Positions 1-54,825 of a stretch of 60,719 nucleotides of DNA are shown one piece after another. Both the position numbers and the translations under genes were made by a program. The DNA comes from a virus, in IMG/VR virus record IMGVR_UViG_3300045988_085035; one strand, written 5' to 3'. The notes beneath the pieces are model-generated. The model saw only the letters and a list, made by a program, of their open reading frames with translations. It had not been told where the DNA came from and did no database searches. Position 1 is the stretch's first letter; every line of letters begins with the position of its first letter.

Positions 1-40
1 AAAAAAAATACCAGGCGGGTTATACCTACCTGGTATTTTT
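1..40. terminator. Bidirectional intrinsic terminator between the last + strand gene and the 3' end of the integrase gene
   Basis: Read directly: A8-TACCAGG-13 nt loop-CCTGGTA-T5. The same sequence recurs at 60621-60660 because of the assembly overlap. Confidence 0.7.
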
Positions 41-41
41 G

Positions 42-1610: not shown

Positions 1611-1679
1611 CTTACTCGTGTCCTCCTTCGTTCTGTGTAGCACTAAAATCCACGAATAACACCTTTCTCAGCCTCTTTA

Positions 1680-30203: not shown

Positions 30204-30311
30204 GCTGAGTACAAATTACCCAGCGTTGCAGGGTTCTAAATGCGACGGTGTGTCAACCGCAGAGTGGCTGCGGATATATAAATTAAATCGAACATACAGG
30301 AGGAGAAGCAG

Positions 30312-40064: not shown

Positions 40065-40068
40065 ACCA

Positions 40069-40107
40069 GGGCGCATGGGTGTCATAGCTCATGCGCTCTT
40101 TTGTTTT
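40069..40107 (+). terminator. Intrinsic terminator inside the tail module
   Basis: GGGCGCATG-12 nt loop-CATGCGCTC (9 bp, one G-U pair) followed by TTTTGTTTT. Confidence 0.6.
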
Positions 40108-40126
40108 AAAACTGAAGGAGGCAGAT

Positions 40127-43100: not shown

Positions 43101-45667
43101 TGATATGCGGTAAGACCACGAACTTGTCTCTGAATGGAGCTACACCTGAGAAACCGGTACAGGTGTCATTCTTGCATCAGGATGATTCAGGGATTGACTG
43201 GGAAATAGCATACGGGGCATACAAGTTTGTAAAGCTGACAGGAATCAGTGTCACTACACTTCCGAATAAGACCAGATACAAAGTTAAAGAATCATTTGAT
43301 TCCACAGGAATGATTGTTACGGCAAACTTTGATGATGGTTCGTCAGAAACAGTGACAAAATATACTCTGACCCAGCCTGACATGACCACATCTGGCACAA
43401 AGACTATCACCGTGACCTCTGAGAATAAAAATGCCTCTTTCGATATTCTGGTTGTTGATGTAACTGAAATTATTGTAACTACACTACCATCCAAAACAAG
43501 ATATTATGAAGATGATACTTTTTCATCGGACGGTATTGTAGTCTCACAAGTATACAGTGATGGGGCTAAAGAGAACATATCAGGCTTTACATTATCCAAA
43601 CCTGATATGTCCGCAGGCGGCGAGAAGACAGTAACCGTAACTTACAGTAAGTTTACGACTACATTTACAATCACGGTAATTGGTATATCCGGGATAGAAG
43701 TCTCCAAAATGCCGACAAAGACAGAATACTATTTAGGCGATAGCCTTGACGCGTCTGGCCTTGTAGTGGTATCCAGATATACAGATAACACCACAAAGAA
43801 ACTGGAAAATTACAGTATATCCAAGCTTGACAGCTCATCAGTTGGTGAGAAAACAATTACAGTAACCTATAAAACCCACACCACCACTTTCAAAGTAACC
43901 GTATACAAAGCAAGTGGTATCAGAATCTCACATTTTCCCGCTAAGGCGTTCTATAAGATCGGGGAGTCTCTGGATTTGACGGGATTGTCTGTAAATCTGA
44001 TTAGAAATGATGGCTCTGAAAAAGAGATCACGGATTATAGCGTATCCGGATTCGACAGCTCTAAAGTCGGAACCGAGACCATAACTGTATCTTACAACAT
44101 GATAGTTAATGGTACGAATACCTTTATAGGTTCCGACAGCTTTCAGATTAAAGTCACAAACGATGGCAAAAACCCATTTGACAGCAGCACAGGCGGAGGC
44201 GATACAGGAGAAACTGAGGAAAATACAGAGCCAGTGTACGTAACAGTCCATTGGATAGATGGGGAGTTCGAGGATCTGACCCATGAAAATGGCGGTATCA
44301 AGGCAAATACGTTTGTTCTTCAGGAGTCTATCTGTTCTGAGCAGTACTTTATCTTTGGTGGCTGCATCTCCAACCAAGTGTCATTTGAAACAGGACACAA
44401 ACAGTTCTGGGGGACAGATGAAGACTCATACCCGTCCGGCAGAATTGAGGTATATCTGGAATGCAATAAAGCACAGATCAAGGTATTCACAGGCAGGATT
44501 GCAAGTGCAGAAAGGACTTCTATCTATTCGACAAGGAAGATTGTAGCCTACGACTATCTGTATGATCTCAGAAACACAGATATTGCAAGATGGTACAAGA
44601 GCCAGATTGCCGATAAGAAGAAAAAACTTACACAGAAACAGTTCCGCGATATGTTGTTTAAATTCTTAGGCATTGAACAAATATCTACAAAGCTGCACTG
44701 GGATGATGCTTATGTGCCATATACAAACAATGCGAATGAAATAAATGCGGTTAATGTTATAAAAGACCTGTGCCTTCAGAACGACCGCTTTGGATGGATG
44801 AATAGGGACGGCAAGTTTGAATACCTAAAGCTTCGCCAAAACAGTCAGGAAACAGGCGAGACCACTTCCGGAAAGAAGATTTACAAATATTATGATAATG
44901 CAGAGGTCCATCTTGATACGTTCAAAAGCTTTTGGGCGAAAGAGGGAAGAATATGGTTTCCGCATACGATTTATACTGATCCAGATCCAAGCAGAGCATT
45001 TGGCTTCACGGCTGGCGAACCAACTGCACAGGAAGCATATGAAAACAATGTTTTCTATAACCGGAACAGCTTTTTTGTGGGTAATGAAGACTGGATGGAC
45101 TATGTATGGAGCGCGGACGAATATGGTGGAATCAGCAGAGAAAAGCCGATTATCAACATCTGTTATGGTACTTTTGTAAATCTGGATTTGCGAAAGTTTT
45201 ACAGGGCGCAAGCCTACACAGTGGAAGTTATTGGAAATCCGCTCAATACAATCGGACAGACAATAGAGCTGTGCAACACGAAGCAGATGGAAGATGGCAC
45301 AGAATTAGAGTGGTATGTACATTCTTACATCATGAGTAGGACTTTGAAGCTTGGAAACAGCCAATTGATTGATACTTACAGTGCAAATAATGCACCTTTT
45401 AACAGTAACAGCCGACAGCTTGGAAAAGATACACCAGAGATATCCGCAACTGTCAATCGCACCCGATCAGAAATGCCTGTAGTAAGCTATGGATTCTCAG
45501 ATGGTACGAGCGATTTTACCCCGGCTGCAGTTTCTACTTCTGGAAGCACTACAAAAAAGACAGCATTACGTTGCATGAAGCGTATCAAAAAAGATGATTA
45601 TGATAAGCTTCCCGCGGCAATTCGTACCAGAGACGACACTATTTTTATGACATACAAGGAGAGCTAA
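40127..45667 (+). CDS. Giant tail/baseplate-associated adhesin-like protein (1846 aa) with Ig-like repeats, an LRR segment and a C-terminal tail-protein region
   Basis: At least 8 roughly 70-aa Ig-like repeats of the pattern LP-K-YY-GD-LD-GL-V...Y-DG-...-GEKT-TVTY-TF-V. BspA-type LRR segment (ITSVYGFDSCVNLTTVQLPDNLNKVEYDAFSGCSNLQEVTLSENVTTVNSSAF). Start moved to the ATG at 40127 after GAAGGAGG. Confidence 0.8.
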   Translation: MADTYKLSSLMGTTSGMTLVTSTIMKSGKTQVLDSYYMYSKVPYGRWYYSQAQQSFDNEITKVSVKYDGNILFTFRKGSLGECDAFYVIGLTATEKIYKQSGTLDTGEKFDKICVYGTTINLNLASFQVNAIYEMFLISGGKKPQIIFNFIKAPKAYLSRYEYPFTRSSSDKNMTTKLPVKAAPSKIYLTYAGAADKWKVTTDLFSTVTLDNLLGTNWFLCGSYDYSVTVKDSSLFDFFKINNRALSQITGYGKGRVVLQSSGNIICVWGTTNNGAYSSYYAEYMRNVPELTLADGSKFFKMRGRMRVNSGSKTALIYEMYLLNNQKILIYIAGIPDDDTKATGENYVNLFGVNTSLGEVTAGEKIWLYLDDAGTSYAMKTGNDSEVSKIEILTLPTENTFYLGSKLNLDGLTVRATFADGTTFDILKWNEINVAYTNELGNQAVTVMFRGKTATFQTECLEDKVASIDFTISQDHYMIGESLGYIRVTATRLSGKTESVSTGDYTISGYDLNTQGTQTITVAYEGLTATKEILVDSPETAVLTVVNNSSEPFLINFDTFESMNVVATLTYSDGQTTNILPSYSGYDNEAAGEKIISVSYRGLSATYTVQVVEEITHQVSDNITMTLNGLTGKAVISGSGEIPSGSNIFSNPHESDWRGSGYKTAIKTAEIADGITSVYGFDSCVNLTTVQLPDNLNKVEYDAFSGCSNLQEVTLSENVTTVNSSAFSSCTNTILTIKNAECQIYDESYTLQVAKIRGHIDSTAQSYAEKYDIEFEPLETVTKIQITKKSEKVYHVGDVLSKDDFEVTVTLDTGENRSIKSYEFEYDFSSVGEKTVKVIYGELYASFTVNIIGYTFSELVNTTTGMQVIRNTKNDDGIDTVDGVDWFKFNNVTADKLYINGNNGIGFGVSSEQLKICRRDGAIWNIYRLETVLDDGTKLLKIRVEGYTHYGASGTHESQIKYELFLFGNGDMYLNVIQSPASTSTYAGTSSLICGKTTNLSLNGATPEKPVQVSFLHQDDSGIDWEIAYGAYKFVKLTGISVTTLPNKTRYKVKESFDSTGMIVTANFDDGSSETVTKYTLTQPDMTTSGTKTITVTSENKNASFDILVVDVTEIIVTTLPSKTRYYEDDTFSSDGIVVSQVYSDGAKENISGFTLSKPDMSAGGEKTVTVTYSKFTTTFTITVIGISGIEVSKMPTKTEYYLGDSLDASGLVVVSRYTDNTTKKLENYSISKLDSSSVGEKTITVTYKTHTTTFKVTVYKASGIRISHFPAKAFYKIGESLDLTGLSVNLIRNDGSEKEITDYSVSGFDSSKVGTETITVSYNMIVNGTNTFIGSDSFQIKVTNDGKNPFDSSTGGGDTGETEENTEPVYVTVHWIDGEFEDLTHENGGIKANTFVLQESICSEQYFIFGGCISNQVSFETGHKQFWGTDEDSYPSGRIEVYLECNKAQIKVFTGRIASAERTSIYSTRKIVAYDYLYDLRNTDIARWYKSQIADKKKKLTQKQFRDMLFKFLGIEQISTKLHWDDAYVPYTNNANEINAVNVIKDLCLQNDRFGWMNRDGKFEYLKLRQNSQETGETTSGKKIYKYYDNAEVHLDTFKSFWAKEGRIWFPHTIYTDPDPSRAFGFTAGEPTAQEAYENNVFYNRNSFFVGNEDWMDYVWSADEYGGISREKPIINICYGTFVNLDLRKFYRAQAYTVEVIGNPLNTIGQTIELCNTKQMEDGTELEWYVHSYIMSRTLKLGNSQLIDTYSANNAPFNSNSRQLGKDTPEISATVNRTRSEMPVVSYGFSDGTSDFTPAAVSTSGSTTKKTALRCMKRIKKDDYDKLPAAIRTRDDTIFMTYKES

Positions 45668-46390
45668 ATGGCAATAGAGCATAAAGCTTTTTCCGGCGGA
45701 AAAGAAATAGACGGTTTCTATTCTGGTGGAAAAGAAATACAGGAAATATGGGGCGGCGATACACTCTTGTGGAGAAAGAAAGAAGAGGTAGTTGCAGAAG
45801 ACCAGTGGTGGGGAGAATACGACCTGTACGCCAGATTTAAAAACCCTGCACCATACAAGAGAGCAGAAGTGGGATTTACAACGCAGGGAAGAGATGCCCC
45901 TCAATCTTACAATTTGGCGTTCGGATTTTGCACACGGGTAGTAAATGGAATATATATGGTCACAGCCGCCGCCGTAGACAATTATGTACTGACCGGGCAA
46001 TATCACAATGATATATCAATGGTTCCGGCGTGCTACTATAGCAATACAGCAGATATTGGCGGTCAGGTACTTGCGTATCCCGGCATTGATTATGTAGATG
46101 ACACTGCTTCAAAATGGGATGCACTCTTGAAAGAATATCGTCTTTACACCAAGTCAGAATCCGAACCGATTTATTCATGGGGCGGAGCATTTGAAGAGAA
46201 ACCGTTCTGGTTTAAAGACAGTGACAAACAGGCGGGGGTATTTGATGTAAGTACGCCTCAGGTAGTTAGTGATGAAGAAACAGGTAAATACTATTACTAT
46301 CCTGCCAGACTTTTCAGTAACGTAAGAGACATGAAAAATTGGCTGCTTGTCATGCGGAATAATCCGGATAAATGGTGGACAGATAAGTAG
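45668..46390 (+). CDS. Tail-associated hypothetical protein
   Basis: ATG immediately after the upstream stop codon; 240 aa; no motif recognised. Confidence 0.5.
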   Translation: MAIEHKAFSGGKEIDGFYSGGKEIQEIWGGDTLLWRKKEEVVAEDQWWGEYDLYARFKNPAPYKRAEVGFTTQGRDAPQSYNLAFGFCTRVVNGIYMVTAAAVDNYVLTGQYHNDISMVPACYYSNTADIGGQVLAYPGIDYVDDTASKWDALLKEYRLYTKSESEPIYSWGGAFEEKPFWFKDSDKQAGVFDVSTPQVVSDEETGKYYYYPARLFSNVRDMKNWLLVMRNNPDKWWTDK

Positions 46391-46428
46391 CGATACATCG
46401 GGAGGATAAAGATGATGGACATTCGAGC

Positions 46429-46449
46429 AGAGCCGTAACAGGCTCTTTT
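46429..46449 (+). terminator. Weak intrinsic terminator candidate
   Basis: AGAGCC-GTAACA-GGCTCT followed by TTTAT. The stem is only 6 bp. Confidence 0.35.
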
Positions 46450-46487
46450 ATTATACCCATTTTACACACAAAGAAAGGAGAATCTTT

Positions 46488-46715
46488 ATGTATGCAGTAA
46501 ATGTAAAGGTATTACAGGAAACAGAAAATAAAAGAATCGTACAGGCGTTTATCGTAGCCGATACGGTACCGGCAGAGCTACCGACCACTGGAAAGAATGT
46601 AACAGGCTTGCTTCCTAAGGATGTATTTGCCCCATTTTCGGTCATTTATGTGGTAGCCGATGTATCTGATAAAATGTTCATTGCAGATGAATCTGGCGTG
46701 TTTATCGCGCAGTAA
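46488..46715 (+). CDS. Small hypothetical protein upstream of the fiber genes
   Basis: SD AAAGGAG; 75 aa. Confidence 0.45.
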   Translation: MYAVNVKVLQETENKRIVQAFIVADTVPAELPTTGKNVTGLLPKDVFAPFSVIYVVADVSDKMFIADESGVFIAQ

Positions 46716-46725
46716 GGGGGCATAT

Positions 46726-47394
46726 ATGTTTGATTTTATACAGATCATTCTTTTATTCTATAATCTTGCAGTAAAAAAGGCGAAAGCCTATGCAGATAAA
46801 GTCTTCGGTAAAGTCCCTACCGGTGGACTGAAATGGATAGGGGCAGTGAATTACTATGCAGATCTGCCGAAGAATCCAGAGGAGGGCGAGTGCTACACAG
46901 TCAAATATCTTGGCAGCTCTGGCACTGAGGTCAGCGGAACCGAATATGCGTGGGGGAAACTAGATGGCACATACCAGTGGATTCCTCTGGGACCTGATAT
47001 TGATATCAGCTTGTATGTGAAAAAAGCGGATGCGGACAAAGCATACCAGCCGAAGGGTTCATACCTGACTGCTGTTCCACAGGCGACAGCGAATACCTTA
47101 GGGGGCATTAAGGCAAAAGCGAAGTCTACAGAATCTGTTGAAGCGGCAATCAGTACAGACGGAAAGATGTATGTCCCGGATATGAAAACGTCCGTGGACA
47201 ATACTCTCACGAAAAGCGGATCTGCTGCAGATGCAAAAAAGACCGGTGACGAACTGGCAAAGAAAGCAGGTAAAGTAAAACCGGCAAAAGCAGGAAACCT
47301 TGCATCCCTGGATGCATCCGGGAACCTCACAGATTCCGGTATGAATCCTATTTCAATCAGTGTAGAACAGACCACACTGAAGATTAAATACTAA
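46726..47394 (+). CDS. Tail fiber-like protein
   Basis: ATG at 46726 after AAGGGGG. ANTLGGIKAKAK...DGKMYVPD resembles the LGGVK...DG-L-V motif common in fiber proteins. Confidence 0.5.
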   Translation: MFDFIQIILLFYNLAVKKAKAYADKVFGKVPTGGLKWIGAVNYYADLPKNPEEGECYTVKYLGSSGTEVSGTEYAWGKLDGTYQWIPLGPDIDISLYVKKADADKAYQPKGSYLTAVPQATANTLGGIKAKAKSTESVEAAISTDGKMYVPDMKTSVDNTLTKSGSAADAKKTGDELAKKAGKVKPAKAGNLASLDASGNLTDSGMNPISISVEQTTLKIKY

Positions 47395-47405
47395 GGAGAC
47401 ATGAA

Positions 47406-48488
47406 ATGAATTTTTTGGATAACAAAGATTTGAATGGTACCGCGTATTATTTTCACAGTACCGATGGTGACCGTTATTATGAGGGCATGAACCTCGCTGT
47501 TAAGTTCGCAGAAGAAATTAAAAAGTATTCTGACATCTGGCAGTGGATCAAAGCCAGAATCAAGGCAGGGAACTTTGCGGGTATTCATGTAAATGATTTT
47601 ATTCGTTGGCAGACCACAGACAATAAATGGATCGAGTCACGTGTCGCCGGTATCAACACCTACAGGAGATACGGTGACCGTGAAGTGCCAAACCATATTG
47701 ACTTTATCAGTAAAGACCTGTGGCCGACACTGCATGTAATGAACCCGGTTAATTACAACAACGGTATCATCCCAACTGAGAACCTGTCCGGTGACGGCAC
47801 GAAAACAGCTTTTGTACTGACAAACGAAATGGCAGCTGTCGCAAGCGTGACAATCGGGGGCACTGCTACAACGGCATACACCTATGATGCAGACACACAT
47901 ACAATCACATTTACTGCTGCACCGGCAGCAGGTACAAACAATATTGTAGTAACCGGAACTGGTTCCGAATACCCGTGGTTGGCTTCAGATCTGTATTTGT
48001 ATGCGAACAGTTTAAAGGGTCATGTGGCAGGCGGTACAAGCAAAACATCACCGGTAAAACTGGTAGATTATACAAAAGACGGTATCTGGTCGAAACTTCC
48101 GGAAGCCTTAAAATCTGTAATTGTGACCAAACGTGCATTACTTCCTCAGCGATATTCAGCATCCGGGGTGTTATCAAATAATAATTCCTGGGGCTGGCAG
48201 GATATGGGTAAACTTTGGATTCCATCAGAAATTGAGGTGTACGGACACGGTGTATGGGCTGATAATCCATGGGATAAGGGTGGATTTGTCCAGTATCCAA
48301 TATTCAACTGCAATATGAGGCGTGTAAAAGGACTGGGTGACGGAGGTGGCCGCTACAGCTGGTGGCTGATCTCGGCTTCCGCTGGCTACACCTGCAACTT
48401 CTGTCTTGTCGCCGGCACCGGTGGTGCCAACCACGCCAGTGCTTCCTCCACCTGGGTGGGGCTGCCCGTCTGCTTCCGTATCTCATAA
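47406..48488 (+). CDS. DGR target protein 1 (Mtd-like receptor-binding protein, C-type-lectin/FGE-fold variable C-terminus)
   Basis: The C-terminal 44 aa, YSWWLISASAGYTCNFCLVAGTGGANHASASSTWVGLPVCFRIS, are encoded by VR1. Located in the fiber cluster, immediately upstream of avd-TR-RT. Confidence 0.9.
   Translation: MNFLDNKDLNGTAYYFHSTDGDRYYEGMNLAVKFAEEIKKYSDIWQWIKARIKAGNFAGIHVNDFIRWQTTDNKWIESRVAGINTYRRYGDREVPNHIDFISKDLWPTLHVMNPVNYNNGIIPTENLSGDGTKTAFVLTNEMAAVASVTIGGTATTAYTYDADTHTITFTAAPAAGTNNIVVTGTGSEYPWLASDLYLYANSLKGHVAGGTSKTSPVKLVDYTKDGIWSKLPEALKSVIVTKRALLPQRYSASGVLSNNNSWGWQDMGKLWIPSEIEVYGHGVWADNPWDKGGFVQYPIFNCNMRRVKGLGDGGGRYSWWLISASAGYTCNFCLVAGTGGANHASASSTWVGLPVCFRIS
48345..48477 (+). repeat. 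DGR variable repeat VR1
   Basis: Hand alignment to TR (offset 680 nt) gives about 23 differences, about 21 of them at TR adenines. The 3' 22 nt CCTGGGTGGGGCTGCCCGTCTG are identical. Confidence 0.9.
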
Positions 48489-48501
48489 ATCTTTTAGAAA
48501 T

Positions 48502-48522
48502 CCGGGGGCCTTGTGCCCCCGG
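48502..48522 (+). promoter_or_regulatory. GC-rich hairpin 14 nt downstream of the target-1 stop codon (about 25 nt past the end of VR1); DGR target-recognition hairpin candidate
   Basis: CCGGGGGC-CTTGT-GCCCCCGG (8-bp perfect stem) with no following T-run. A related sequence lies after VR2 at 60579-60600. Confidence 0.6.
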
Positions 48523-48539
48523 TAAGAGGTAAATGAAAT

Positions 48540-49001
48540 ATGAGTAACGTACTTGAAAGGTTCCGCGGTATCTCAGAAATGGAGTTCTATCAGAATGCCA
48601 TAAAGATACGACACGAGATGTCGCACTTTCTTATGAGTGAAAAGAACGTGCCAAAACGCTGGCGATCTGTTTATGCGTATCCGATTATCAACAAAGTGCA
48701 GGAATTGATCGACACGATCATAGATGCAAATAGAATTGTCGCGTACTCGCCTGAGCTGCTGAATGACCGAAAGCAAGGTTTTCAAGATGCTATCGAATTA
48801 ACTGATAAAATCTTTGAACGACTTCAGGGAGCTGTGCAGGACGTGTGGTGGGACATGCTACACAGTGAGCCGGGCAGTTCGGGATACCAGAACCGATTAC
48901 GTATTGAGAAACACGTAGCCGAAATAGGTATTCTTCTGGAATATGAAGAACGTCTGTTAAAAGGCTGCAAATATAAATCGAAACTTGTAAAAAGAAAATA
49001 A
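48540..49001 (+). CDS. avd: Accessory variability determinant (Avd-like four-helix-bundle protein)
   Basis: 153-aa basic helical protein located between VR1 and TR, the canonical Avd position. The call rests mainly on position; sequence similarity was not verified. Confidence 0.7.
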   Translation: MSNVLERFRGISEMEFYQNAIKIRHEMSHFLMSEKNVPKRWRSVYAYPIINKVQELIDTIIDANRIVAYSPELLNDRKQGFQDAIELTDKIFERLQGAVQDVWWDMLHSEPGSSGYQNRLRIEKHVAEIGILLEYEERLLKGCKYKSKLVKRK

Positions 49002-49024
49002 AATATAGTGGTTATATTCTGCAT

Positions 49025-49157
49025 AGTGGCCGCAACAACTGGTGGCTGATCTCTGCTAACGCTGGCAACACCAGCAACTTCTGTAATGTCAACAACAACG
49101 GTAATGCCAACAACAACATTGCTTCCAACACCTGGGTGGGGCTGCCCGTCTGATTCC
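49025..49157 (+). repeat. DGR template repeat (TR)
   Basis: Non-coding copy of VR1/VR2. In the VR reading frame it reads RNNWWLISANAGNTSNFCNVNNNGNANNNIASNTWVGLPV, with 14 AAC/AAT codons. Confidence 0.9.
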
Positions 49158-49475
49158 AAGAAAGAAATCTGATTCCATGTCACTATAGTAGGGTCCAGTA
49201 TAGAGTAGGCTCTTCGGAGCAGAAAACAAGTACCCTTTTTAAGAGTTTTTCTATGGAAGGAGAATATAACCGTCCTGCAGTAAAGCGGGTAAATATGTGC
49301 CTTGACGCGGTTGGCCGGACGCTTCTTGCATGGTCAGGGATGGCGATAATATACGCTGCTTGGAATCCAGCTAAGTACCTGATTACATGACCAGTACCGC
49401 AAAGGAGAACACAACGCGCCCCTACAATAACACTCCGCGAGGCATCTTTATAAAAACAAAAGAGGACTTACTAAT
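49158..49475 (+). ncRNA. TR-RT spacer, candidate structured part of the DGR RNA
   Basis: 318 nt with no credible ORF between TR and the RT start. Contains a GCTC-UUCG-GAGC tetraloop hairpin at 49209-49220. Confidence 0.4.
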
Positions 49476-50678
49476 TTGAATAGTACTGAACGTCATGAAG
49501 CCAAGTACCAACGAAGAAAAGCTGCAAGAGAGGCGAAAAGACGCAAGCACCTCGATCAGTATGACAACTTCAACAACGTAGCCTCGGTTCCAGCTCTTAT
49601 AAGAGCACATTTTGATTCACGAAAAGGCGTTATGTGGAAGGCTTCTGTAGCCAGATATAACGCGCATTTTATTAAATACGCTGTTATGCAGTCCAGAGAT
49701 TTATACACTGGCAAATTCAAATGTTCCGGTTTCTTTATATTCTGGATCATTGAACGGGGTAAAAGAAGACACGTACATAGCTTACACTATGCGGAGCGCG
49801 TGATTCGTCGTTCCTGTTGCATCAATGCTATTGTACCTATTCTTTCCAGTGGGTTGATATACGATAATGGGGCAAGTCTGAAAGGCAAAGGTGTATCGTT
49901 CTCAGTGATGAGATGCGCGGTACATTTACACCAGTATTTCAGGGAAACCGGCAGTAATGATGGATATATCTTGGTTATCGACTTCAAAGGGTATTTCAAT
50001 CATATTTTGCACAAGCCCTTGATGGAGAATGTGATTGATCGTTATATCTTAGATCCAGCGCTGAATGCTCTTGTAAAACAATTCATATCTGCTTCAGATA
50101 TGGAAACGGACAGTGAGAAAGGAAAAGGACTGTATATCGGACCAGAAGACAGTCAGATATATGCAATATCGTATCCAAGTTCTATAGATCATCATATAAA
50201 AGATAAATGGGGACTTAGATTTTATGCCAGATATAATGATGATTCTTATATCATGCTGAAAAGCAAAGAGAAGTTGCTGGAATATAAACAGCAACTTTTT
50301 AGCTTGTATGATGCGCTCGGTATTATTCCGAACCAGAAAAAGACGCAGATCATAAAAATCAGCAGAGGATTTACGTATTTAAAAACCAAATATTTCTTGA
50401 CCGAAACAGGGAAGGTGATTATGAAGCCAGACCACAATGCCATAGTCAGAGAACGTAGAAAGCTGAAGAAGCTAAAGAAGTTTTACGATTCTGAAATCCT
50501 GACATTGCAGCAGATCTGCCAGCAGTATATGTCATGGCGTGGGGCTATTCTGAAAAAGGATGCATTCCGGTCTGTTAAGAATATGGATAAGCTTTTTTAT
50601 TCACTGTACCATGTAAGGCCATGGAGATATAAAAAAGATAAGAAACGGAGGGGTGAATATGAACAGAGAACAGCTTAA
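49476..50678 (+). CDS. DGR reverse transcriptase
   Basis: TTG start after AAGAGGA. LYIGPEDSQIYA matches the DGR-specific (I/L)GxxxSQ motif, and the YxDD box reads RYNDDSY. Located immediately downstream of TR. Confidence 0.9.
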   Translation: MNSTERHEAKYQRRKAAREAKRRKHLDQYDNFNNVASVPALIRAHFDSRKGVMWKASVARYNAHFIKYAVMQSRDLYTGKFKCSGFFIFWIIERGKRRHVHSLHYAERVIRRSCCINAIVPILSSGLIYDNGASLKGKGVSFSVMRCAVHLHQYFRETGSNDGYILVIDFKGYFNHILHKPLMENVIDRYILDPALNALVKQFISASDMETDSEKGKGLYIGPEDSQIYAISYPSSIDHHIKDKWGLRFYARYNDDSYIMLKSKEKLLEYKQQLFSLYDALGIIPNQKKTQIIKISRGFTYLKTKYFLTETGKVIMKPDHNAIVRERRKLKKLKKFYDSEILTLQQICQQYMSWRGAILKKDAFRSVKNMDKLFYSLYHVRPWRYKKDKKRRGEYEQRTA

Positions 50679-50931
50679 TGGAGAGATTGTAGCACTCAAA
50701 TCTTTATTGCAGGATTCAGACTATCAGCTCATAAAGCTGATTGAGAATCTTGCAGGATGCACGAGCATTTTTGAGATTCTTGCAACATTCAAATCTTTTC
50801 TTGCAGAGTTTGGAGAACTGGTGAACAGTCGAAAAGCTTGGCGGGAAAAAATCAATTTGATTGAAGCAGAATTAGAAAAAATGGACGCTGCTGAAAAAGA
50901 GCAGATGGCTACACAGAACAATGAGAGGTAA
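50659..50931 (+). CDS. Coiled-coil hypothetical protein
   Basis: ATG at 50659 after GGAGGGG. Overlaps the RT stop. Confidence 0.45.
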   Translation: MNREQLNGEIVALKSLLQDSDYQLIKLIENLAGCTSIFEILATFKSFLAEFGELVNSRKAWREKINLIEAELEKMDAAEKEQMATQNNER

Positions 50932-50945
50932 GAGAGGATCACAAC

Positions 50946-51224
50946 ATGTACATTGACCAGAGTACGATCATAACTGCGGCAAGTGTTATTACCGCAATCA
51001 CTGTAATTTTTTCTGTGGTCTTTGCAATCTATCGGTGGTACTTAAAACAGAATCATCAGGATGTAGAGATTAAGGCACTTAAAAAAGAACAGTGTCTGCT
51101 GACCTATGGCGTTCTTGCTTGCTTAAAAGGCTTAAAAGAGCAGGGGTGCAACGGACCAGTAACGGAAGCAATTGACAAGATCGAGAAACATGTTAATCAG
51201 GCCGCACACGAACAGGAAGAGTAG
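50946..51224 (+). CDS. Membrane-anchored protein of the lysis cassette
   Basis: One N-terminal TM helix (IITAASVITAITVIFSVVFAIY) followed by a soluble tail. Confidence 0.45.
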   Translation: MYIDQSTIITAASVITAITVIFSVVFAIYRWYLKQNHQDVEIKALKKEQCLLTYGVLACLKGLKEQGCNGPVTEAIDKIEKHVNQAAHEQEE

Positions 51225-51235
51225 GAAGTGATTAA

Positions 51236-51571
51236 ATGATAAAACGGTTGAAAAGGGCCATTTCCAAAATCGGAACGCTGAATATTGTTCTGATTTTGGT
51301 TGGGTCCTTTTTTGTATGGTTTAACTGGCAGATGATATTACTCTACCAGGAATGCGGAAGTATGCCGGAAAGCTACGCTTGCGCAGTTGTAGCAGCCACA
51401 ATAGGGGAGTGCGGTATCTGCGGATGGATCAGAACCAACAAGGATAAAAAGCAGGACAGAAAGTGGCAAAAGGAAGATGAACGGAAGCAGCGGAAAAACG
51501 CTGCTTCTGATAACAACGAAGATTATGAAGGAAATCCAATAAACCCAAATGAAACAGGAGGAAAAGGCTAA
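51236..51571 (+). CDS. Two-TM membrane protein (holin or antiholin candidate)
   Basis: TM segments LNIVLILVGSFFVWF and ACAVVAATIGECGICGWI, with a charged C-terminus. Confidence 0.45.
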   Translation: MIKRLKRAISKIGTLNIVLILVGSFFVWFNWQMILLYQECGSMPESYACAVVAATIGECGICGWIRTNKDKKQDRKWQKEDERKQRKNAASDNNEDYEGNPINPNETGGKG

Positions 51572-51900
51572 TGATGATGAGTATTGAGACATTTTTAATG
51601 TTACTGTTAACAGTATCTATTTTAACCGGTCTGGTTACTGAAGGAGTCAAAAAGCTGGCAGATGAAGCAGGCGAAACCTACAAACCGAACCTTTTAGCGG
51701 GTGCGGTATCTGTAGTTTTATCTGCACTGGTATCCGTTGGCTATATCATTCTTACAGAAACACAATTCACTGATAAGATGGCTGTAATTCTAATCGCCTT
51801 AGTTCTGCTGTCTTGGTTATGCTCTATGCTCGGATATGACAAGGTAATCCAGTCTATTATGCAGATCAAGAATCACCAGAACCCAGAACAGAAAGAGTGA
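51571..51900 (+). CDS. Holin
   Basis: Three hydrophobic helices and a charged C-terminus, directly upstream of the endolysin gene. Confidence 0.65.
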   Translation: MMMSIETFLMLLLTVSILTGLVTEGVKKLADEAGETYKPNLLAGAVSVVLSALVSVGYIILTETQFTDKMAVILIALVLLSWLCSMLGYDKVIQSIMQIKNHQNPEQKE

Positions 51901-51904
51901 TGTT

Positions 51905-53602
51905 ATGAATAAACAAAATATCGCAGTGCTCAGAAACATAATCTATGCAGTAGAAAGCGGCGGTCAGATTTACGGTAAGGCGGATTATTCCTGTTTTATC
52001 GGTGCTGGTGCCAATAATTCAAATGAGAAAGCAATCACCATTGGTGCAGGTCAGTGGTATGCAGGTGAGGCGAAAGAGTTACTGTACCGGATTCAGAGAA
52101 TGAACCCGGCACTATTCAAAAAGATGGATACGCAGAAACTGGAAGCGGATCTGCTTATGAAAAACTGGGCGAGCTACACAGTTCGTCCGGGCAGTGATAA
52201 AGCAAAATGCATTGTCAGCATTATCACTACGGATCTCGGAAAGAAATGCCAGGATACCTATATGGAAGACCAGATTGTAGCATACTGCACTTCAATCACG
52301 AAAAAATATGGGGCAATGCAGGATGGTGCCATGATGGAGTGCATCAATATCTTACACCAGGGCGGCAGCGCTGCACTGGACAGAATCCTGTCTAAGACTT
52401 CCAAACCCTATACCGCGGATAAGATTTACAGCACCTTATGCTTAGACCCGGCAGACCATTCATGTGAGACTCAGGTGGGAGATTATGTTGATCGGCAAAA
52501 AGCAGTTATCAGCATGATCCGTAAATATGCGGTAAGTGAAAAGACCGCGGAAGCAAAAAAGGAGGAAACGACAGTGGCGAAAACAGATTTGCAGAAGTTT
52601 AAGGATCTCGGAAATTATTATGCAAATAACGGTGGCACAAAACCGTATCTGGAGAAAAGGACAGAAGCATATCTTGATGATTTTACCAAAAACGCGGGCG
52701 ATAACAACTTCACTAAGTTTGCCAGAGATGTAAACAACTGGGGTCAGCCCGGTTGTCAGGGACAGCCTTGGTGCGCGGAATATCAGTTCTGGAAACTTGT
52801 ACAGGTGAAAGGCATCAAGAAAGCCTTACAGATCATGGGTGGCGGGTTCTACAACTGCCAGTCCATTACTACCCACGCAAAACAGGCGGGTACATGGCAT
52901 CTCACACCGAAAGAGGGTGCATTGGTTATCTTCCGTAATGGCTCACACGTCGGATCCGTGGAGTCTTTCACATCTCAGCGCGTCAATACCAATGAAGGTA
53001 ATACTTCCAGTGCGCCAGGCGTAGTGGCAAATGGCGGGGCCGTGAGGAATAAATCTTACGCTATTAATGATCCGAACATCGACGGATACGTATGGATTGA
53101 CTGGGATGGTGCGGGAGCGTCTGCTACACAGAGCTGGAAGGCTACAGGAACCGCGACAGCGAACGTGGATGAACTCTACGTACGTGAGACGCCAAACGGT
53201 TACATCTTAGGACAGATCAACACAGGCGATCGCGTTGAGGTAGATGGAAAAACATCTGGAAAGTGGACGCATGTTAAGGTTGCTGGCATCGGAATCGGTT
53301 GGATATATACTACATACCTCACGAAAGATGGTACAGCTGCATCCAAGTCTAACACAATTAAGAACAAACAGAATATGGACGAAAAGCTATTCGATGCGAA
53401 AGCAACTGCAAAGACAGCAGTGCGCACCTGGGCGGGTAGCGAATACCCTACCATTAAGAAAATACCATATCTCGGTAAGGGCAAGAGCGTAGAAGTAATG
53501 AACTATACTCAGAAAGATGAAACCGGTCACAAGTGGTATTTTGTCAGAATCAATAAGAAGTATTTAGGATTTGTAGACACTAAGGATATTAAGAAACAAT
53601 AA
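51905..53602 (+). CDS. Endolysin (N-terminal unassigned domain, CHAP-like amidase/peptidase, two C-terminal SH3b-like domains)
   Basis: CHAP-like Cys (GCQGQPWCAEYQFW) and His (GSHVGSVESF). SH3b-like segments YVRETPNGYILGQINTGDRVEV...WTHVKV and VRTWAGSEYPTIKKIPYLGKGKSVEV...KWYFVRI. Confidence 0.8.
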   Translation: MNKQNIAVLRNIIYAVESGGQIYGKADYSCFIGAGANNSNEKAITIGAGQWYAGEAKELLYRIQRMNPALFKKMDTQKLEADLLMKNWASYTVRPGSDKAKCIVSIITTDLGKKCQDTYMEDQIVAYCTSITKKYGAMQDGAMMECINILHQGGSAALDRILSKTSKPYTADKIYSTLCLDPADHSCETQVGDYVDRQKAVISMIRKYAVSEKTAEAKKEETTVAKTDLQKFKDLGNYYANNGGTKPYLEKRTEAYLDDFTKNAGDNNFTKFARDVNNWGQPGCQGQPWCAEYQFWKLVQVKGIKKALQIMGGGFYNCQSITTHAKQAGTWHLTPKEGALVIFRNGSHVGSVESFTSQRVNTNEGNTSSAPGVVANGGAVRNKSYAINDPNIDGYVWIDWDGAGASATQSWKATGTATANVDELYVRETPNGYILGQINTGDRVEVDGKTSGKWTHVKVAGIGIGWIYTTYLTKDGTAASKSNTIKNKQNMDEKLFDAKATAKTAVRTWAGSEYPTIKKIPYLGKGKSVEVMNYTQKDETGHKWYFVRINKKYLGFVDTKDIKKQ

Positions 53603-53615
53603 TATAAGTAGAAAC

Positions 53616-53649
53616 AGGCTCCTGAGGATTACCCTCAGGAGCTTTTTTT
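53616..53649 (+). terminator. Strong intrinsic terminator after the lysis cassette
   Basis: AGGCTCCTGAGG-ATTAC-CCTCAGGAGCTT (12-bp stem) followed by T7. Confidence 0.85.
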
Positions 53650-53650
53650 A

Positions 53651-53923
53651 GTTTACATAAAATGTAACAAAAAGCGTAACAATCGCGTAACATTAGCATT
53701 TTTAAACGTTACAATGTTACAAGCGAGTGTAACATTGTAACACCGATGTTACATTTTCTGTTACGTCGGAAACACTTGATTTTACAGGCTTTGTAAGGGT
53801 TTGTAACATTGTAACATTTATTTCTAATAGACTTATACAACAGAGGGATTAGAGGATTATAGTACTCCCTATTCTCCCTAATTCGTACAGGTCTATACGT
53901 GCGCGAGAAGTTTGATACATTTT
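53651..53923 (+). repeat. GTAAC-array repeat, copy 3 (273 bp)
   Basis: Collinear with 17581-17853. Eleven GTAAC/GTTAC pentamers with the same terminal hairpin and GC-rich box. Confidence 0.9.
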
Positions 53924-53928
53924 GTGAA

Positions 53929-54007
53929 GTTAAATAAAATTGACTAAACCTATTGACAAGTAAAATATTATTGACTATAATTCACGTAACAGTTAAAAAT
54001 ATTTGAC
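53929..54007 (+). promoter_or_regulatory. Promoter C (TTGACA 53953-53958, 17-nt spacer, TATAAT 53976-53981) flanked by two operators
   Basis: Operators GTTAAATAAAATTGAC (53929-53944) and GTTAAAAATATTTGAC (53992-54007). Confidence 0.75.
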
Positions 54008-54029
54008 TTAAAGAAAAGAGGACAAACAT

Positions 54030-54347
54030 ATGACAAACAAGGAATTGAGGGAAAGTGGTTTCCTGAAAACAGAGTTCGGATCAGAGATGCAGGAGTGCAT
54101 CACTGCTTGGGATCACTGGATAACGGAACTCAGCAAATTTGCATTTAATGTATCAGGTCAAGAGTACCAGCGCGCAAGCAGAGCTGCGAACTGGTGTCAG
54201 GCACAATGGGAAGTCTATCAGCTCGCTATGCGTCAATTCTACGGAATTGAATACAGTTTTAGCAGGACAGGCAAGTGCTTTGGAATCTATACAGAGGACG
54301 GCGAAGAGTATCTGTTTGAGGTCAACAGAAAGGAGATCATAGCATGA
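54030..54347 (+). CDS. Hypothetical protein (accessory module)
   Basis: First gene after promoter C; SD AAGAGGA. Confidence 0.5.
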   Translation: MTNKELRESGFLKTEFGSEMQECITAWDHWITELSKFAFNVSGQEYQRASRAANWCQAQWEVYQLAMRQFYGIEYSFSRTGKCFGIYTEDGEEYLFEVNRKEIIA

Positions 54348-54664
54348 GTTGGATGGCAAAGATTTATTCTTACGAAATGAAAGAGGATGCATCAGGATCT
54401 CTGGATGTTATTGAGTACCTTACAGGTGATTCTCTGGAAGAGATTTACAGAAAAGTATTGTCGGCTTGTAAAAGTCGAAGCTGTACACTTGGAGCAATCT
54501 ATAAAAACTGTAGACCGGGAGAGGTGTACGCGGATGATGCTACTAAGATGGAAACTTTAAGTGAATATCAGATCCTTAAAGGTGAACTCGGTGGCATTAT
54601 AGTATGCCGAAAAAACAAGTCTAAAATTTGTTATGTTAGAGAGAATGTCAAAAAGGAGGCGTAA
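54344..54664 (+). CDS. Hypothetical protein
   Basis: ATGA overlap with the upstream gene. Confidence 0.5.
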   Translation: MSWMAKIYSYEMKEDASGSLDVIEYLTGDSLEEIYRKVLSACKSRSCTLGAIYKNCRPGEVYADDATKMETLSEYQILKGELGGIIVCRKNKSKICYVRENVKKEA

Positions 54665-54666
54665 TT

Positions 54667-54825
54667 ATGTGGGAAGTTTATCTTTACAGAGGTGCAGTGA
54701 CTCAGCATTTTGTTGAGTGCGAATCTGACAAAGCAGCGGAGGAACTCTGCGAGGCTTACGGATGTACATATCTTGATGAGCATGGTGTGGAATGGGGCAT
54801 GGATTATCGAGAGGTGTGTGCATGA
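54667..54825 (+). CDS. Small hypothetical protein (52 aa, below the ORF-track cutoff)
   Basis: Hand-translated MWEVYLYRGAVTQHFVECESDKAAEELCEAYGCTYLDEHGVEWGMDYREVCA. SD AAGGAGG upstream; ATGA overlap with the next ORF. Confidence 0.4.
   Translation: MWEVYLYRGAVTQHFVECESDKAAEELCEAYGCTYLDEHGVEWGMDYREVCA

What the first reader, a model, noticed from the sequence alone, without database searches (positions are those of the whole stretch)
47406..50678. Complete diversity-generating retroelement in the tail-fiber cluster (target-avd-TR-RT)
TR (49025-49157) and VR1 (48345-48477) are collinear 133-nt repeats. By hand alignment they differ at about 23 positions, and about 21 of these are adenines in TR (for example TR AACAACAAC versus VR1 GCCGGCACC, and TR GTAATG versus VR1 GTGGTG). 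Read in the VR frame, TR carries 14 AAC/AAT codons, the classic DGR design that explores many residues without creating stops. The last 22 nt, CCTGGGTGGGGCTGCCCGTCTG, are invariant, and the copies diverge just after them (VR TGCTTCCG versus TR TGATTCCA), like an IMH/IMH* pair. The RT carries the DGR-type IGPEDSQ motif and an NDD catalytic box. A small helical protein occupies the Avd position. The gene order matches the Bordetella phage BPP-1 mtd-avd-TR-brt paradigm. The diversified protein sits with the fiber genes, so this phage most likely reprograms its receptor-binding tip.
Basis: partly seen in the sequence, partly recalled or inferred. Interest (0 to 1): 0.8.

Follow-up and report, generated by a model that had tools for sequence, protein, structure and literature searches.

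The report
Active two-target phage diversity-generating retroelement
A temperate phage of gut or rumen Clostridia carries a working diversity-generating retroelement that rewrites the tips of two lectin-like proteins. It is an ordinary example of a known system, but it shows that the orphan Rfam RNA family RT-2 is the element's template-flanking RNA scaffold.

Summary
TR 49026-49157 and VR1 48346-48477 align without gaps and differ at 23 of 132 positions. Of these, 21 are TR adenines (Fisher p = 1.5e-13). TR has 14 AAY codons in the VR frame.

The interpretation as a complete DGR is supported and extended:
- A second variable repeat, VR2 (60436-60556), ends a 264-aa DUF6273 protein 11 kb downstream.
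- In near-identical IMG/VR genomes TR is 100% conserved. VR1 varies at 31 positions (27 at TR adenines) and VR2 at 12 (all at TR adenines), so the element has been active.
- The RT profile matches Bordetella phage bRT (hhalign 99%, E 2e-18).
- The 153-aa accessory protein has no sequence match to Avd. It models as a four-helix bundle whose best annotated structural matches are Avd-family proteins.
- The TR-RT spacer is Rfam RT-2 RNA (104 bits). RT-2 lay directly upstream of the RT in every related locus scanned.
- A covarying 12-bp duplex (49009-49020 with 49261-49272) brackets TR. It lies 2 nt from a candidate primer strand, the same geometry as the BPP-1 "cPRT Stop".

Verdict: a new member of a known kind. 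The C-type lectin fold of the target could not be verified here.

The parts
47406..48488 (+). Target gene 1 (360 aa). N-terminal region, Ig-like middle domain and C-terminal DUF6273 domain that carries VR1. It lies after the tail and fibre genes and before the lysis cassette.
   Evidence: ORF. DUF6273 E 0.0037, 17.6 bits, below the Pfam cut-off of 23.5; many close homologues carry a precomputed PF19789 hit. Shares its C-terminal 140 aa with target 2 (39% id, E 2e-21). Context.
48346..48477 (+). VR1, the variable repeat at the 3' end of target 1
   Evidence: 23 mismatches to TR, 21 at TR adenines. Varies among three near-identical genomes at 31 positions, 27 at TR adenines. All 14 AAY-templated residues vary among six homologues that are >=93% identical to the window protein.
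48451..48480 (+). IMH-like 3' end of VR1: a GC-rich invariant 22-mer followed by CTTCCG. C48473 replaces TR A49153 in every VR examined.
   Evidence: TR ...CTG-A-TTCC against VR ...CTG-C-TTCCG in most related loci.
48502..48522 (+). GC hairpin after VR1 (8-bp stem CCGGGGGC/GCCCCCGG, loop CTTGT) with no T-run. Candidate target-recognition hairpin or cruciform.
   Evidence: DNA fold -11.5 kcal/mol, z = -4.2. The stem sequence changes in a compensatory way across loci. BPP-1 has an 8-bp GC hairpin after its VR.
48540..49001 (+). Accessory gene (153 aa): divergent Avd-like four-helix-bundle protein
   Evidence: AF2 pLDDT 88, four long helices. Best PDB fold hit is 2gsc (PF05635 representative), prob 0.97, TM 0.51/0.65. 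BFVD rank 2 is 'Avd-like protein', prob 0.94. Among 47 family members, 3 hit PF22296 bAvd and 1 hits PF05635. Same position in L009, L010 and L011.
49009..49020 (+). Upstream strand of the TR-bracketing duplex (TGGTTATATTCT), 5 nt before TR
   Evidence: Pairs with 49261-49272. Across 16 loci 95.8% of cells are paired, 6 of 12 pairs show compensatory changes, covariation 0.443 against <=0.11 for slid controls, and 0/500 shuffles reach it. Also present in the unconstrained MFE fold.
49026..49157 (+). TR, the template repeat: non-coding, 14 AAY codons in the VR frame, 33 adenines up to G49152
   Evidence: 100% identical in L001 and L002.
49154..49158 (+). Template strand of the candidate template:primer duplex (UUCCA, just 3' of G49152-A49153)
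   Evidence: Pairs with U49254-A49258. The two adjacent pairs covary (AU 8/GC 5/GU 1/UA 1; UA 7/AU 5). 0/500 shuffles reach the covariation score, but the slide -1 control scores the same.
49168..49177 (+). Second direct copy of the TR 3' end (TCTGATTCCA = 49149-49158). Unexplained.
   Evidence: two copies in about half of the related loci. In a fold with the TR body held unpaired it pairs with the primer strand.
49188..49465 (+). RT-2 RNA (Rfam RF03077), the structured spacer between TR and the RT. It includes the P1 stem-loop 49190-49236 with a UUCG tetraloop (49213-49216), the invariant GGAAGGAG (49255-49262), the P2 hairpin 49274-49289 followed by UAAAUAU, and a large multi-helix domain.
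   Evidence: cmscan 104.1 bits against gathering 40, full-length model 1-222. The reported start, 49216, has low posterior probability; the P1 consensus fits from about 49188 by inspection. Found directly upstream of the RT in L001, L002, L009-L011 and all 20 GTDB loci scanned.
49254..49258 (+). Candidate primer strand (UGGAA). A49258 is the inferred priming nucleotide by analogy with BPP-1 Sp A56.
   Evidence: It is separated from the stop-duplex strand by exactly 2 nt (G49259, G49260), as Sp57-58 are in BPP-1.
49261..49272 (+). Downstream strand of the TR-bracketing duplex (AGAATATAACCG)
49476..50678 (+). DGR reverse transcriptase (400 aa, TTG start) with IGPEDSQ (221-227), YNDD (253-256) and a basic N-terminal extension
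   Evidence: RVT_1. Best PDB hit is bRT 8ub7_A, E 4e-11, against a group II maturase at 5.7e-5. hhalign to BPP-1 Brt: 99.05%, E 1.9e-18, 278 columns. The motifs are invariant in 26 homologues and the N-terminus is conserved from the TTG start.
59782..60576 (+). Target gene 2 (264 aa): a small DUF6273 protein at the end of the accessory-gene region. On the circular map it is adjacent to the serine-recombinase integrase gene, and a terminator-like hairpin follows it.
   Evidence: ORF. DUF6273 E 6.5e-11. Integrase. Terminal repeat and hairpin sequence.
60436..60556 (+). VR2, the second variable repeat templated by the same TR (TR 49037-49157)
   Evidence: 16 mismatches, 15 at TR adenines. The window and L004 differ at 12 positions, all at TR adenines. 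The IMH is identical to that of VR1; the downstream hairpin is degenerate.

Best explanation
This is a complete, recently active diversity-generating retroelement (DGR) in a circularly assembled, roughly 60.6-kb temperate tailed phage. Its relatives sit in gut and rumen Clostridia MAGs.

**Proposed mechanism.**
1. A transcript running from just after the accessory gene to the RT start (about 49003-49475) folds so that a 12-bp duplex (49009-49020 with 49261-49272) closes off TR.
2. Two nucleotides upstream on the same spacer strand, UGGAA (49254-49258) pairs with UUCCA (49154-49158) at the 3' end of TR.
3. The RT, held on this RNA together with the Avd-like helical-bundle protein, starts cDNA synthesis there by cis-priming.
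4. It copies TR towards its 5' end, misincorporating opposite the 33 adenines, and stops at the bracketing duplex just before 49026.
5. The mutagenised cDNA of about 130 nt replaces VR1 (48346-48477) in a fibre-associated 360-aa protein, and VR2 (60436-60556) in a small 264-aa protein. It is guided by the shared GC-rich IMH and, at least for VR1, by a downstream GC hairpin.
6. TR itself is protected because it carries A49153 (a TGA codon) where both VRs carry C.
7. The result is variation at up to 14 AAY-templated residues, plus a few others, on the C-terminal DUF6273 (lectin-like) domain. This most likely changes ligand or receptor specificity.

**Shown here:** the repeat anatomy, the adenine bias, the RT affinity, VR variation between genomes with an invariant TR, the RT-2 RNA, and the bracketing duplex.

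**Inferred:** the priming site, the role of the Avd-like protein, the integration step, and the function of the target proteins.
For: - Adenine-specific mismatches: 21 of 23 for VR1 (p = 1.5e-13) and 15 of 16 for VR2.
- 14 AAY codons in TR, and a TGA in TR where the VRs have TGC.
- TR is identical in L001 and L002, while VR1 varies at 31 positions, 27 of them TR adenines.
- VR2 differs between the window and L004 at 12 positions, all TR adenines; these are 12 of the 18 mismatches in 938 nt.
- All 14 AAY-templated residues vary among six homologues that are >=93% identical to the window protein.
- RT: best PDB hit is bRT; hhalign gives 99% probability, E 1.9e-18, over 278 columns; IGPEDSQ and Y-DD are invariant in the family.
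- The gene order matches BPP-1 and is conserved in L009, L010 and L011.
- An A-biased TR/VR pair lies immediately upstream of RT-2 RNA in 20 of 23 loci.
- RT-2 RNA scores 104 bits and is present in all 25 related loci scanned.
- BPP-1 has Rfam Phage_DGR at the equivalent place.
- The bracketing duplex is 95.8% paired with 6 compensatory pairs, and the controls are clean.
- The 2-nt spacing and the order of elements match the BPP-1 RNP described in bioRxiv 10.1101/2023.10.23.563531.
- Avd-like fold and weak family-level Pfam links.
- Hairpin after VR1, z = -4.2.
Against: - No read-level or experimental evidence of ongoing mutagenesis. Differences between genomes show past activity only.
- The accessory protein has no direct sequence similarity to Avd, and the Foldseek E-values are not significant (0.48 and 0.64).
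- The target's C-type lectin fold was not verified. AF2 pLDDT is below 50 over much of residues 280-347. Fold and profile searches found no Mtd, TvpA or TaqVP match.
- Target 1's own DUF6273 score is below the Pfam cut-off.
- Two substitutions are not at adenines. T49119->G recurs in VR1 and VR2.
- The template:primer helix has only moderate support, because the slide -1 control gives the same covariation score.
- The predicted first template base would be A49153, yet all VRs carry C there. That base must therefore lie outside the transferred tract.
- The hairpin after VR2 is degenerate.
- The hairpin after VR1 lies about 24 nt past the repeat, against 4 nt in BPP-1.
Confidence: 0.93

Rival explanations
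1. The element is a fossil DGR. The repeats and genes remain, but the element no longer diversifies its targets in this genome.
For: There are no within-sample data. VR2's downstream hairpin is degenerate and identical in the window and L004. Two non-adenine differences have accumulated.
Against: All ORFs are intact, with catalytic YNDD and IGPEDSQ. TR is 100% conserved, while the VRs differ at A positions between genomes whose flanking DNA is 95-98% identical. The RNA duplexes are intact in the window.
Confidence: 0.05
2. The DGR is real, but the diversified proteins are not receptor-binding tips for host adsorption. They could be adhesins or decoration proteins that bind other ligands such as mucus, other cells or immune components. 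Target 2 could be a prophage-end accessory protein with a non-virion role.
For: Target 2 lies 9 kb from the tail genes, after a block of small accessory genes. On the circular map it is next to the integrase and has its own terminator-like hairpin. Target 1's middle domain resembles the Ig-like domains of phage decoration, neck and tailspike N-terminal proteins. The literature is itself undecided about small DUF6273 targets and tentaclins (PMC10743442).
Against: Target 1 directly follows a 1858-aa Big_3/LRR tail protein and two fibre-region ORFs. Many homologues carry N-terminal extensions of 70-270 residues, and the one examined (P0164) is Ala/Thr-rich and fibre-like. The precedent is Mtd in BPP-1.
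Confidence: 0.25
3. The RT and RNA form a different kind of retroelement (a retron, group II intron or defence-associated RT), and the A-biased repeats are coincidental paralogous sequence.
For: NCBIfam and PADLOC give only generic RT-domain hits: group II intron RT/maturase 61 bits (far below its cut-off of 300), Drt3a 41 bits, RT_UG4 60 bits. Weinberg et al. 2017 left open a retron role for RT motifs.
Against: All of those hits are partial and low-scoring (the NCBIfam hits are far below their curated cut-offs; PADLOC has none), while bRT is the best solved-structure match and aligns over nearly its full length. The mismatch pattern has p = 1.5e-13. Twenty of 23 loci with this RNA have an A-biased TR/VR pair. 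No intron-like RNA flanks both sides of the RT.
Confidence: 0.01

Closest known systems
Bordetella phage BPP-1 DGR (mtd-avd-TR-brt) and its bRT-Avd-RNA ribonucleoprotein
   Same: - Gene order.
[quoted passage not shown]
- A GC-rich IMH, with CGTCTG at the inferred initiation site.
- A GC hairpin after VR.
- An RT homologous over 278 columns.
- The same order of RNA elements: a stem-loop with a UNCG tetraloop after TR, a primer strand, 2 nt, a stop duplex of about 12 bp to a sequence upstream of TR, then a short stem-loop followed by A-rich single strand, then a large stem domain.
   Different: - The RNA belongs to another Rfam family: RT-2 (RF03077) rather than Phage_DGR (RF03022).
- The spacer is about 320 nt rather than 140 nt.
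- The accessory protein has no detectable sequence similarity to Avd.
- The target domain is DUF6273, with no detectable similarity to Mtd.
- There are two targets, one of them 11 kb away.
- The hairpin lies about 24 nt past VR rather than 4 nt.
- A second copy of the TR 3' end is present.
DGRs of Faecalibacterium prophages (Lelie, CP11, Roos, Pioen) with large and small DUF6273 targets (PMC11792537)
   Same: Gut Bacillota temperate phages. The targets carry DUF6273 with the VR at its C-terminus. Some have both a large and a small target.
   Different: I made no direct sequence comparison with those phages. A megablast of 40000-55000 against the INPHARED phage collection found nothing, so this phage is not a close relative of any deposited phage.
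Two-target gut-phage DGRs nd4/nd12 and tentaclins (PMC10743442)
   Different: [quoted passage not shown] Here both VRs are C-terminal, so neither target is a tentaclin.
Rfam RF03077 RT-2 RNA (Weinberg et al. 2017, PMC5737381)
   Same: A full-length match far above the gathering score, immediately upstream of an RT gene.
   Different: The family is described only as 'found near RT genes'. Only RT-10 was assigned to a DGR, and a role for other RT motifs was speculation. Here RT-2 lies between TR and a DGR RT in every locus scanned. Its function-relevant pairings extend outside the Rfam model, to the 3' end of TR and to a sequence upstream of TR. I found no paper in the searchable library that links RT-2 to DGRs.

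Membership tests
Diversity-generating retroelement (DGR) | TR/VR near-repeat whose differences fall almost only at TR adenines | tested here: met
   VR1: 21 of 23 at A, Fisher p = 1.5e-13. VR2: 15 of 16 at A.
Diversity-generating retroelement (DGR) | RT of the DGR clade: motif 4 [ILV]GxxxSQ, YxDD, closest to bRT | tested here: met
   IGPEDSQ and YNDD, invariant in 26 homologues. Best PDB hit is bRT 8ub7_A at 4e-11, against a group II maturase at 5.7e-5. hhalign 99.05%, E 1.9e-18. No full phylogeny was built.
Diversity-generating retroelement (DGR) | VR at the 3' end of a protein-coding target; TR non-coding and next to the RT | tested here: met
   VR1 ends 11 nt before the stop codon of ORF 47406-48488, and VR2 ends 20 nt before the stop codon of ORF 59782-60576. 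TR is intergenic and has an in-frame TGA.
Diversity-generating retroelement (DGR) | IMH in VR against IMH* in TR: a GC-rich conserved 3' end with fixed differences that set the direction of transfer | tested here: met
   The 22-nt GC-rich block is identical in TR, VR1 and VR2. It is followed by A in TR and C in both VRs, a difference conserved across most related loci. Its function was not tested.
Diversity-generating retroelement (DGR) | Accessory protein Avd (PF05635 / PF22296 pentameric four-helix bundle) between the target and TR | tested here: inconclusive
   Position and size fit. AF2 gives a four-helix bundle, pLDDT 88. The top PDB fold hit is 2gsc, a PF05635 representative (PMC10053308), prob 0.97 but E 0.48. 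BFVD 'Avd-like protein' has prob 0.94. Three of 47 family members hit bAvd and one hits PF05635. The window protein itself has no Pfam, PDB or hhalign match. The oligomeric state was not tested.
Diversity-generating retroelement (DGR) | Hairpin or cruciform downstream of VR | tested here: met
   VR1 has an 8-bp GC stem, z = -4.2, with compensatory stem changes across loci. At VR2 the hairpin is degenerate. The spacing differs from BPP-1.
Diversity-generating retroelement (DGR) | Variable protein with a C-type lectin / FGE-like fold that displays the VR | tested here: inconclusive
Diversity-generating retroelement (DGR) | Evidence of mutagenic retrohoming: VR varies while TR stays constant | tested here: met
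   Comparison of genomes. Variation within a single population was not testable with these tools.
BPP-1-type DGR RNA architecture (cis-priming RNP) | Duplex between a sequence upstream of TR and the spacer (cPRT Stop), adjacent to the template:primer duplex | tested here: met
   12 bp, 95.8% paired, 6 compensatory pairs, 0/500 shuffles, slid controls <=51% paired. It lies 2 nt from the primer strand, as in BPP-1. The template:primer duplex itself is only moderately supported.
Rfam RF03077 RT-2 RNA | Covariance-model score at or above the curated gathering threshold | tested here: met
   104.1 bits against 40, model positions 1-222 of 222.
Tentaclins (PMC10743442) | N-terminal C-lec domain carrying the VR, followed by Ig-like domains with a C-terminal anchor Ig domain | tested here: not met
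   Both VRs are C-terminal. In target 1 the Ig-like domain precedes the DUF6273 domain.

The most novel reading that the evidence does not exclude
The tandem second copy of the TR 3' end (TCTGATTCCA, 49168-49177; present in about half of the clade) may be a functional decoy. It would compete with the real TR end for the primer strand UGGAA (49254-49258) and so form an RNA switch that gates cis-primed cDNA synthesis. This would be a regulatory layer not described for DGRs. It would sit on an RT-2 RNA scaffold that reproduces the BPP-1 stop-duplex and primer geometry with an unrelated sequence and a highly divergent Avd.
Probability: 0.15. Interest if true: 0.55.

Novelty: new member of a known kind. 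Interest (0 to 1): 0.35.

Why it matters
DGRs are common in temperate gut phages, so the element itself is not surprising. Three things make this locus useful.

1. **An orphan RNA family gets a function.** The locus and 25 relatives give Rfam RT-2 a concrete, testable role as the DGR RNA of a Clostridia-phage DGR clade.
2. **The BPP-1 RNA geometry is conserved with covariation support.** A stop duplex bracketing TR, a 2-nt linker, a primer strand and a tetraloop stem-loop after TR all appear in a lineage whose RNA sequence and accessory protein have diverged beyond sequence recognition. This supports the claim that cis-priming is general. It also supplies compensatory-mutation pairs that nature has already tested.
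3. **It defines a large accessory-protein family.** The Avd-like family has 587 representatives at 50% identity and is essentially missed by Pfam. That may explain why many DGRs are reported as lacking Avd.

Tried and rejected
- **Megablast** of 40000-55000 against deposited phages: no match.
- **Sequence tests for Avd:** Pfam, NCBIfam, PADLOC and PDB phmmer on the 153-aa protein, plus hhalign of 20- and 47-sequence profiles against BPP-1 Avd, were all negative. Only the fold and weak hits in distant family members link it to Avd.
- **Tests for the target's C-type lectin fold:** AF2 of the full-length protein gave pLDDT below 50 over much of the VR domain. Foldseek returned only Ig-like middle-domain hits, and TaqVP appeared at rank 46 without significance. 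A PDB profile search and hhalign against Mtd were negative.
- **Single-sequence thermodynamics** of the spacer was uninformative (z = +1.14), although covariation is strong.
- **The promoter and terminator consensus scan** gave nothing above expectation for a TR promoter.
- **N-terminal extensions of longer target homologues:** I tested whether they correspond to the upstream ORF 46660-47394. They do not.
- **RNAduplex searches** for a stop duplex within the first 100 nt after TR gave inconsistent partners. The real partner lies just after GGAAGG.
- **Retron, group II intron and defence-RT readings** were rejected on RT affinity and context.

Full report
**1. The observation**

At offset 680, TR 49026-49157 and VR1 48346-48477 align without gaps over 132 nt. 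They differ at 23 positions.
- 21 of the 23 are adenines in TR. TR has 34 adenines and 98 other bases.
- The other two are T->G, at 49054 and 49119.
- Fisher one-sided p = 1.5e-13.

In the VR reading frame TR holds 14 AAC/AAT codons out of 45. It also has a TGA where VR has TGC.

- target, 47406-48488;
- a 153-aa ORF, 48540-49001;
- the RT, 49476-50678, with IGPEDSQ and YNDD.

**2. A second variable repeat**

I scanned the whole window with TR while ignoring adenine positions. This found a third copy at the 3' end of ORF 59782-60576. The homologous part, 60436-60556, has 16 mismatches to TR, 15 of them at adenines.

Both VRs carry the same IMH-like end (...CGTCTG-C-TTCCG), while TR has ...CGTCTG-A-TTCC. 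The two target proteins share their C-terminal 140 residues (39% identity, E 2e-21). This region is Pfam DUF6273: target 2 scores E 6.5e-11, and target 1 scores 17.6 bits, below the cut-off.

**3. Evidence of activity**

Two IMG/VR contigs carry RTs 98-99% identical to the window's. Their DNA is 95-96% identical to the window across the region.
- TR is identical in all three genomes.
- VR1 differs at 31 positions, 27 of which are TR adenines.
- For VR2, the window and L004 differ at 12 positions, all TR adenines. These are 12 of the 18 mismatches in 938 nt.
- Among six target-1 homologues that are >=93% identical to the window protein, all 14 AAY-templated residues vary. Overall, 17 of 36 VR residues vary, against 25 of 324 outside the VR.

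This is the expected footprint of mutagenic retrohoming. It shows past activity, not ongoing activity.

**4. The reverse transcriptase**

- Pfam finds RVT_1.
- Among solved structures the best match is the Bordetella phage bRT (8ub7_A, E 4e-11). A group II maturase follows at 5.7e-5, and no retron RT appears.
- A 26-sequence profile aligns to BPP-1 Brt over 278 columns with 99.05% probability and E 1.9e-18.
- I221-Q227 (IGPEDSQ), Y253, D255 and D256 are invariant in the family. The conserved N-terminus supports the TTG start.
- NCBIfam and PADLOC give only low-scoring generic RT-domain hits (the NCBIfam ones far below their curated cut-offs).

**5. The accessory protein**

The 153-aa protein has no Pfam, NCBIfam, PADLOC or PDB sequence match. 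Profile-profile comparison with BPP-1 Avd is negative.

The fold evidence points to Avd but is not statistically significant:
- The AF2 model is confident (pLDDT 88) and is a four-helix bundle.
- The best PDB fold match is 2gsc (prob 0.97, TM 0.51/0.65, E 0.48). PMC10053308 names 2gsc as a representative of PF05635, the Avd-like family.
- In BFVD, rank 2 is annotated 'Avd-like protein' (prob 0.94).

A profile search found 587 representatives of this protein family. Of 47 members scanned, three hit PF22296 bAvd and one hit PF05635, all weakly. The gene sits in the same position in loci whose RTs are 61-64% identical to the window's.

I read it as a strongly diverged Avd. Membership remains formally inconclusive.

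**6. The RNA**

The 318-nt TR-RT spacer matches Rfam RF03077, RT-2 RNA, over the full model at 104 bits against a gathering score of 40. BPP-1 has RF03022, Phage_DGR, at the same relative place.

RT-2 lies directly upstream of the RT in L001, L002, L009-L011 and in all 20 GTDB loci scanned. Those RTs are 39-77% identical to the window's, and the loci come mostly from Clostridia MAGs. In 20 of 23 loci an A-biased TR/VR pair lies immediately upstream of RT-2.

Weinberg et al. 2017 assigned only RT-10 to a DGR and speculated about the other RT motifs. I found no paper in the library that links RT-2 to DGRs.

**7. RNA architecture**

*The duplex that brackets TR.* Between the accessory gene's stop codon and TR there is a conserved GGTTAT-NNN-CT motif. 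In the window it is 49009-49020. It is complementary to 49261-49272, just after an invariant GGAAGG in the spacer. Across 16 loci:
- 95.8% of cells pair;
- 6 of 12 pairs show compensatory changes;
- the covariation score is 0.443, against <=0.11 when the partner is slid;
- no shuffle out of 500 reaches the observed score.

An unconstrained MFE fold of 49003-49475 also predicts this duplex.

*The candidate template:primer duplex.* Two nucleotides upstream on the same strand, UGGAA (49254-49258) can pair with UUCCA (49154-49158) at the TR 3' end. The two adjacent pairs covary: AU/GC/GU/UA at 8/5/1/1, and UA/AU at 7/5. Support is only moderate, because a -1 slide gives the same covariation score.

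*Other elements.*
- After TR comes a stem-loop capped by UUCG (49190-49236).
- After the stop-duplex strand comes a short hairpin (49274-49289) followed by UAAAUAU, then a large multi-helix domain.

*Comparison with BPP-1.* This order matches the BPP-1 ribonucleoprotein described by Handa et al.:
- Avd-binding stem-loop with a UNCG tetraloop;
- primer strand Sp47-56;
- two linker nucleotides, Sp57-58;
- the 11-bp avd:Sp 'cPRT Stop' duplex;
- a short stem-loop plus A-minor adenosines;
- the bRT-binding stem.

In BPP-1, synthesis starts at the G of CGTCTG. My own count on the TR sequence places G117 there; this is an inference. The same hexamer ends at G49152 here.

The 5' edge of TR/VR homology (49026) lies 5 nt from the duplex. 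That fits termination at the duplex.

**8. Target-site features**

VR1 is followed, about 24 nt later, by an 8-bp GC hairpin with no T-run (z = -4.2). Its stem changes in a compensatory way among loci. BPP-1 has a similar hairpin 4 nt after its VR. The equivalent sequence after VR2 is degenerate in both the window and L004, yet VR2 has still diversified.

**9. Genome context**

The first and last 99 nt of the window are identical, so this is a circular assembly of about 60.6 kb.

The genome encodes:
- a large serine recombinase (42-1643, minus strand);
- a family A DNA polymerase and a VapE-like primase/helicase;
- terminase, an SPP1-type portal and a capsid protein;
- a 1456-aa protein with no family hit, possibly the tape measure;
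- an 1858-aa tail protein with seven Big_3 repeats and a BspA-type LRR;
- two small ORFs, then the DGR;
- a CHAP+SH3 endolysin, with small ORFs between the RT and the endolysin that may be holins (no family hit).

Target 2 lies at the far end of a block of small accessory genes. On the circle it is next to the integrase.

The receptor-binding role of target 1 is inferred from its position, and from the N-terminal extensions of longer homologues — Ala/Thr-rich and fibre-like in the one examined. The role of target 2 is open.

**10. Comparison with what is known, and verdict**

The element is therefore a new member of a known kind. The added value lies in the second target, the population evidence, the assignment of RT-2 RNA to DGRs, and the covariation-backed BPP-1-like RNA geometry.

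Still unverified:
- the C-type lectin fold;
- the oligomeric, Avd-like nature of the accessory protein;
- the priming nucleotide;
- current activity.

Noticed in passing
window 49168-49177 (copy of 49149-49158): There is a second direct copy of the TR 3' end, TCTGATTCCA, 10 nt after TR. The same tandem duplication of about 18-20 nt is present in about half of the related loci, namely those with a longer TR-to-GGAAGG distance. In a fold with the TR body held unpaired, it pairs with the candidate primer strand. Its function is unknown.
   Followed up: partly
window 49119 (TR T) vs 48439 and 60518 (VR G): A non-adenine difference, T->G (ATT Ile -> AGT Ser), recurs in VR1 and VR2 of the window and in L001 VR1 and L004 VR2, but not in L002 VR1. 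It could reflect selection, a misincorporation hotspot or a recent TR mutation. The last is unlikely, because TR is identical in three genomes.
   Followed up: partly
L002, VR1 region (aligned to window 48353-48355): VR1 of the related genome L002 lacks one codon (3 nt) relative to TR and to the other VR1 copies. This is an in-frame length change inside a variable repeat.
   Followed up: no
window 1-99 and 60621-60719: An identical 99-nt direct repeat sits at both ends of the window, indicating a circular or terminally redundant assembly. It contains a terminator-like hairpin (ACCAGG...CCTGGT followed by a T-run) just after target 2.
   Followed up: yes
window 30215-30306 (+): An Rfam GP20-a RNA match (RF02991, 68.2 bits against gathering 47.2) lies immediately upstream of ORF 30312-30980 in the head-gene region.
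   Followed up: no
window 48481-48501 and equivalents in L009-L018: A conserved motif, TAAATCTTTTAG(A), lies between the target-1 stop codon and the GC hairpin in many loci. A looser version precedes the VR2 hairpins. It may be part of target-site recognition.
   Followed up: no
L026 272-509 and 653-895: A Spirochaetaceae-MAG contig carries two tandem RT-2 RNA copies upstream of one RT. No TR/VR pair was found in the short flank available.
   Followed up: no
L009 8776-9034; L013 7067-7134: Related phage loci carry other structured RNAs near the DGR. L009 has a RAGATH-8 RNA (183 bits) after the endolysin gene. L013 has a type II hammerhead ribozyme (41 bits).
   Followed up: no
window 40091-45667 (+): An 1858-aa tail protein has seven Big_3 Ig-like repeats and a BspA-type leucine-rich repeat segment. 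This is a large adhesin-like tail component directly upstream of the fibre and DGR genes.
   Followed up: partly
window 48540-49001 protein family: The accessory protein defines a family of 587 representatives at 50% identity (E <= 0.001), most 130-155 aa long, with a conserved MSNVL N-terminus and a VPK motif. Pfam essentially does not capture it. This may be why DGR surveys report many elements without Avd.
   Followed up: partly
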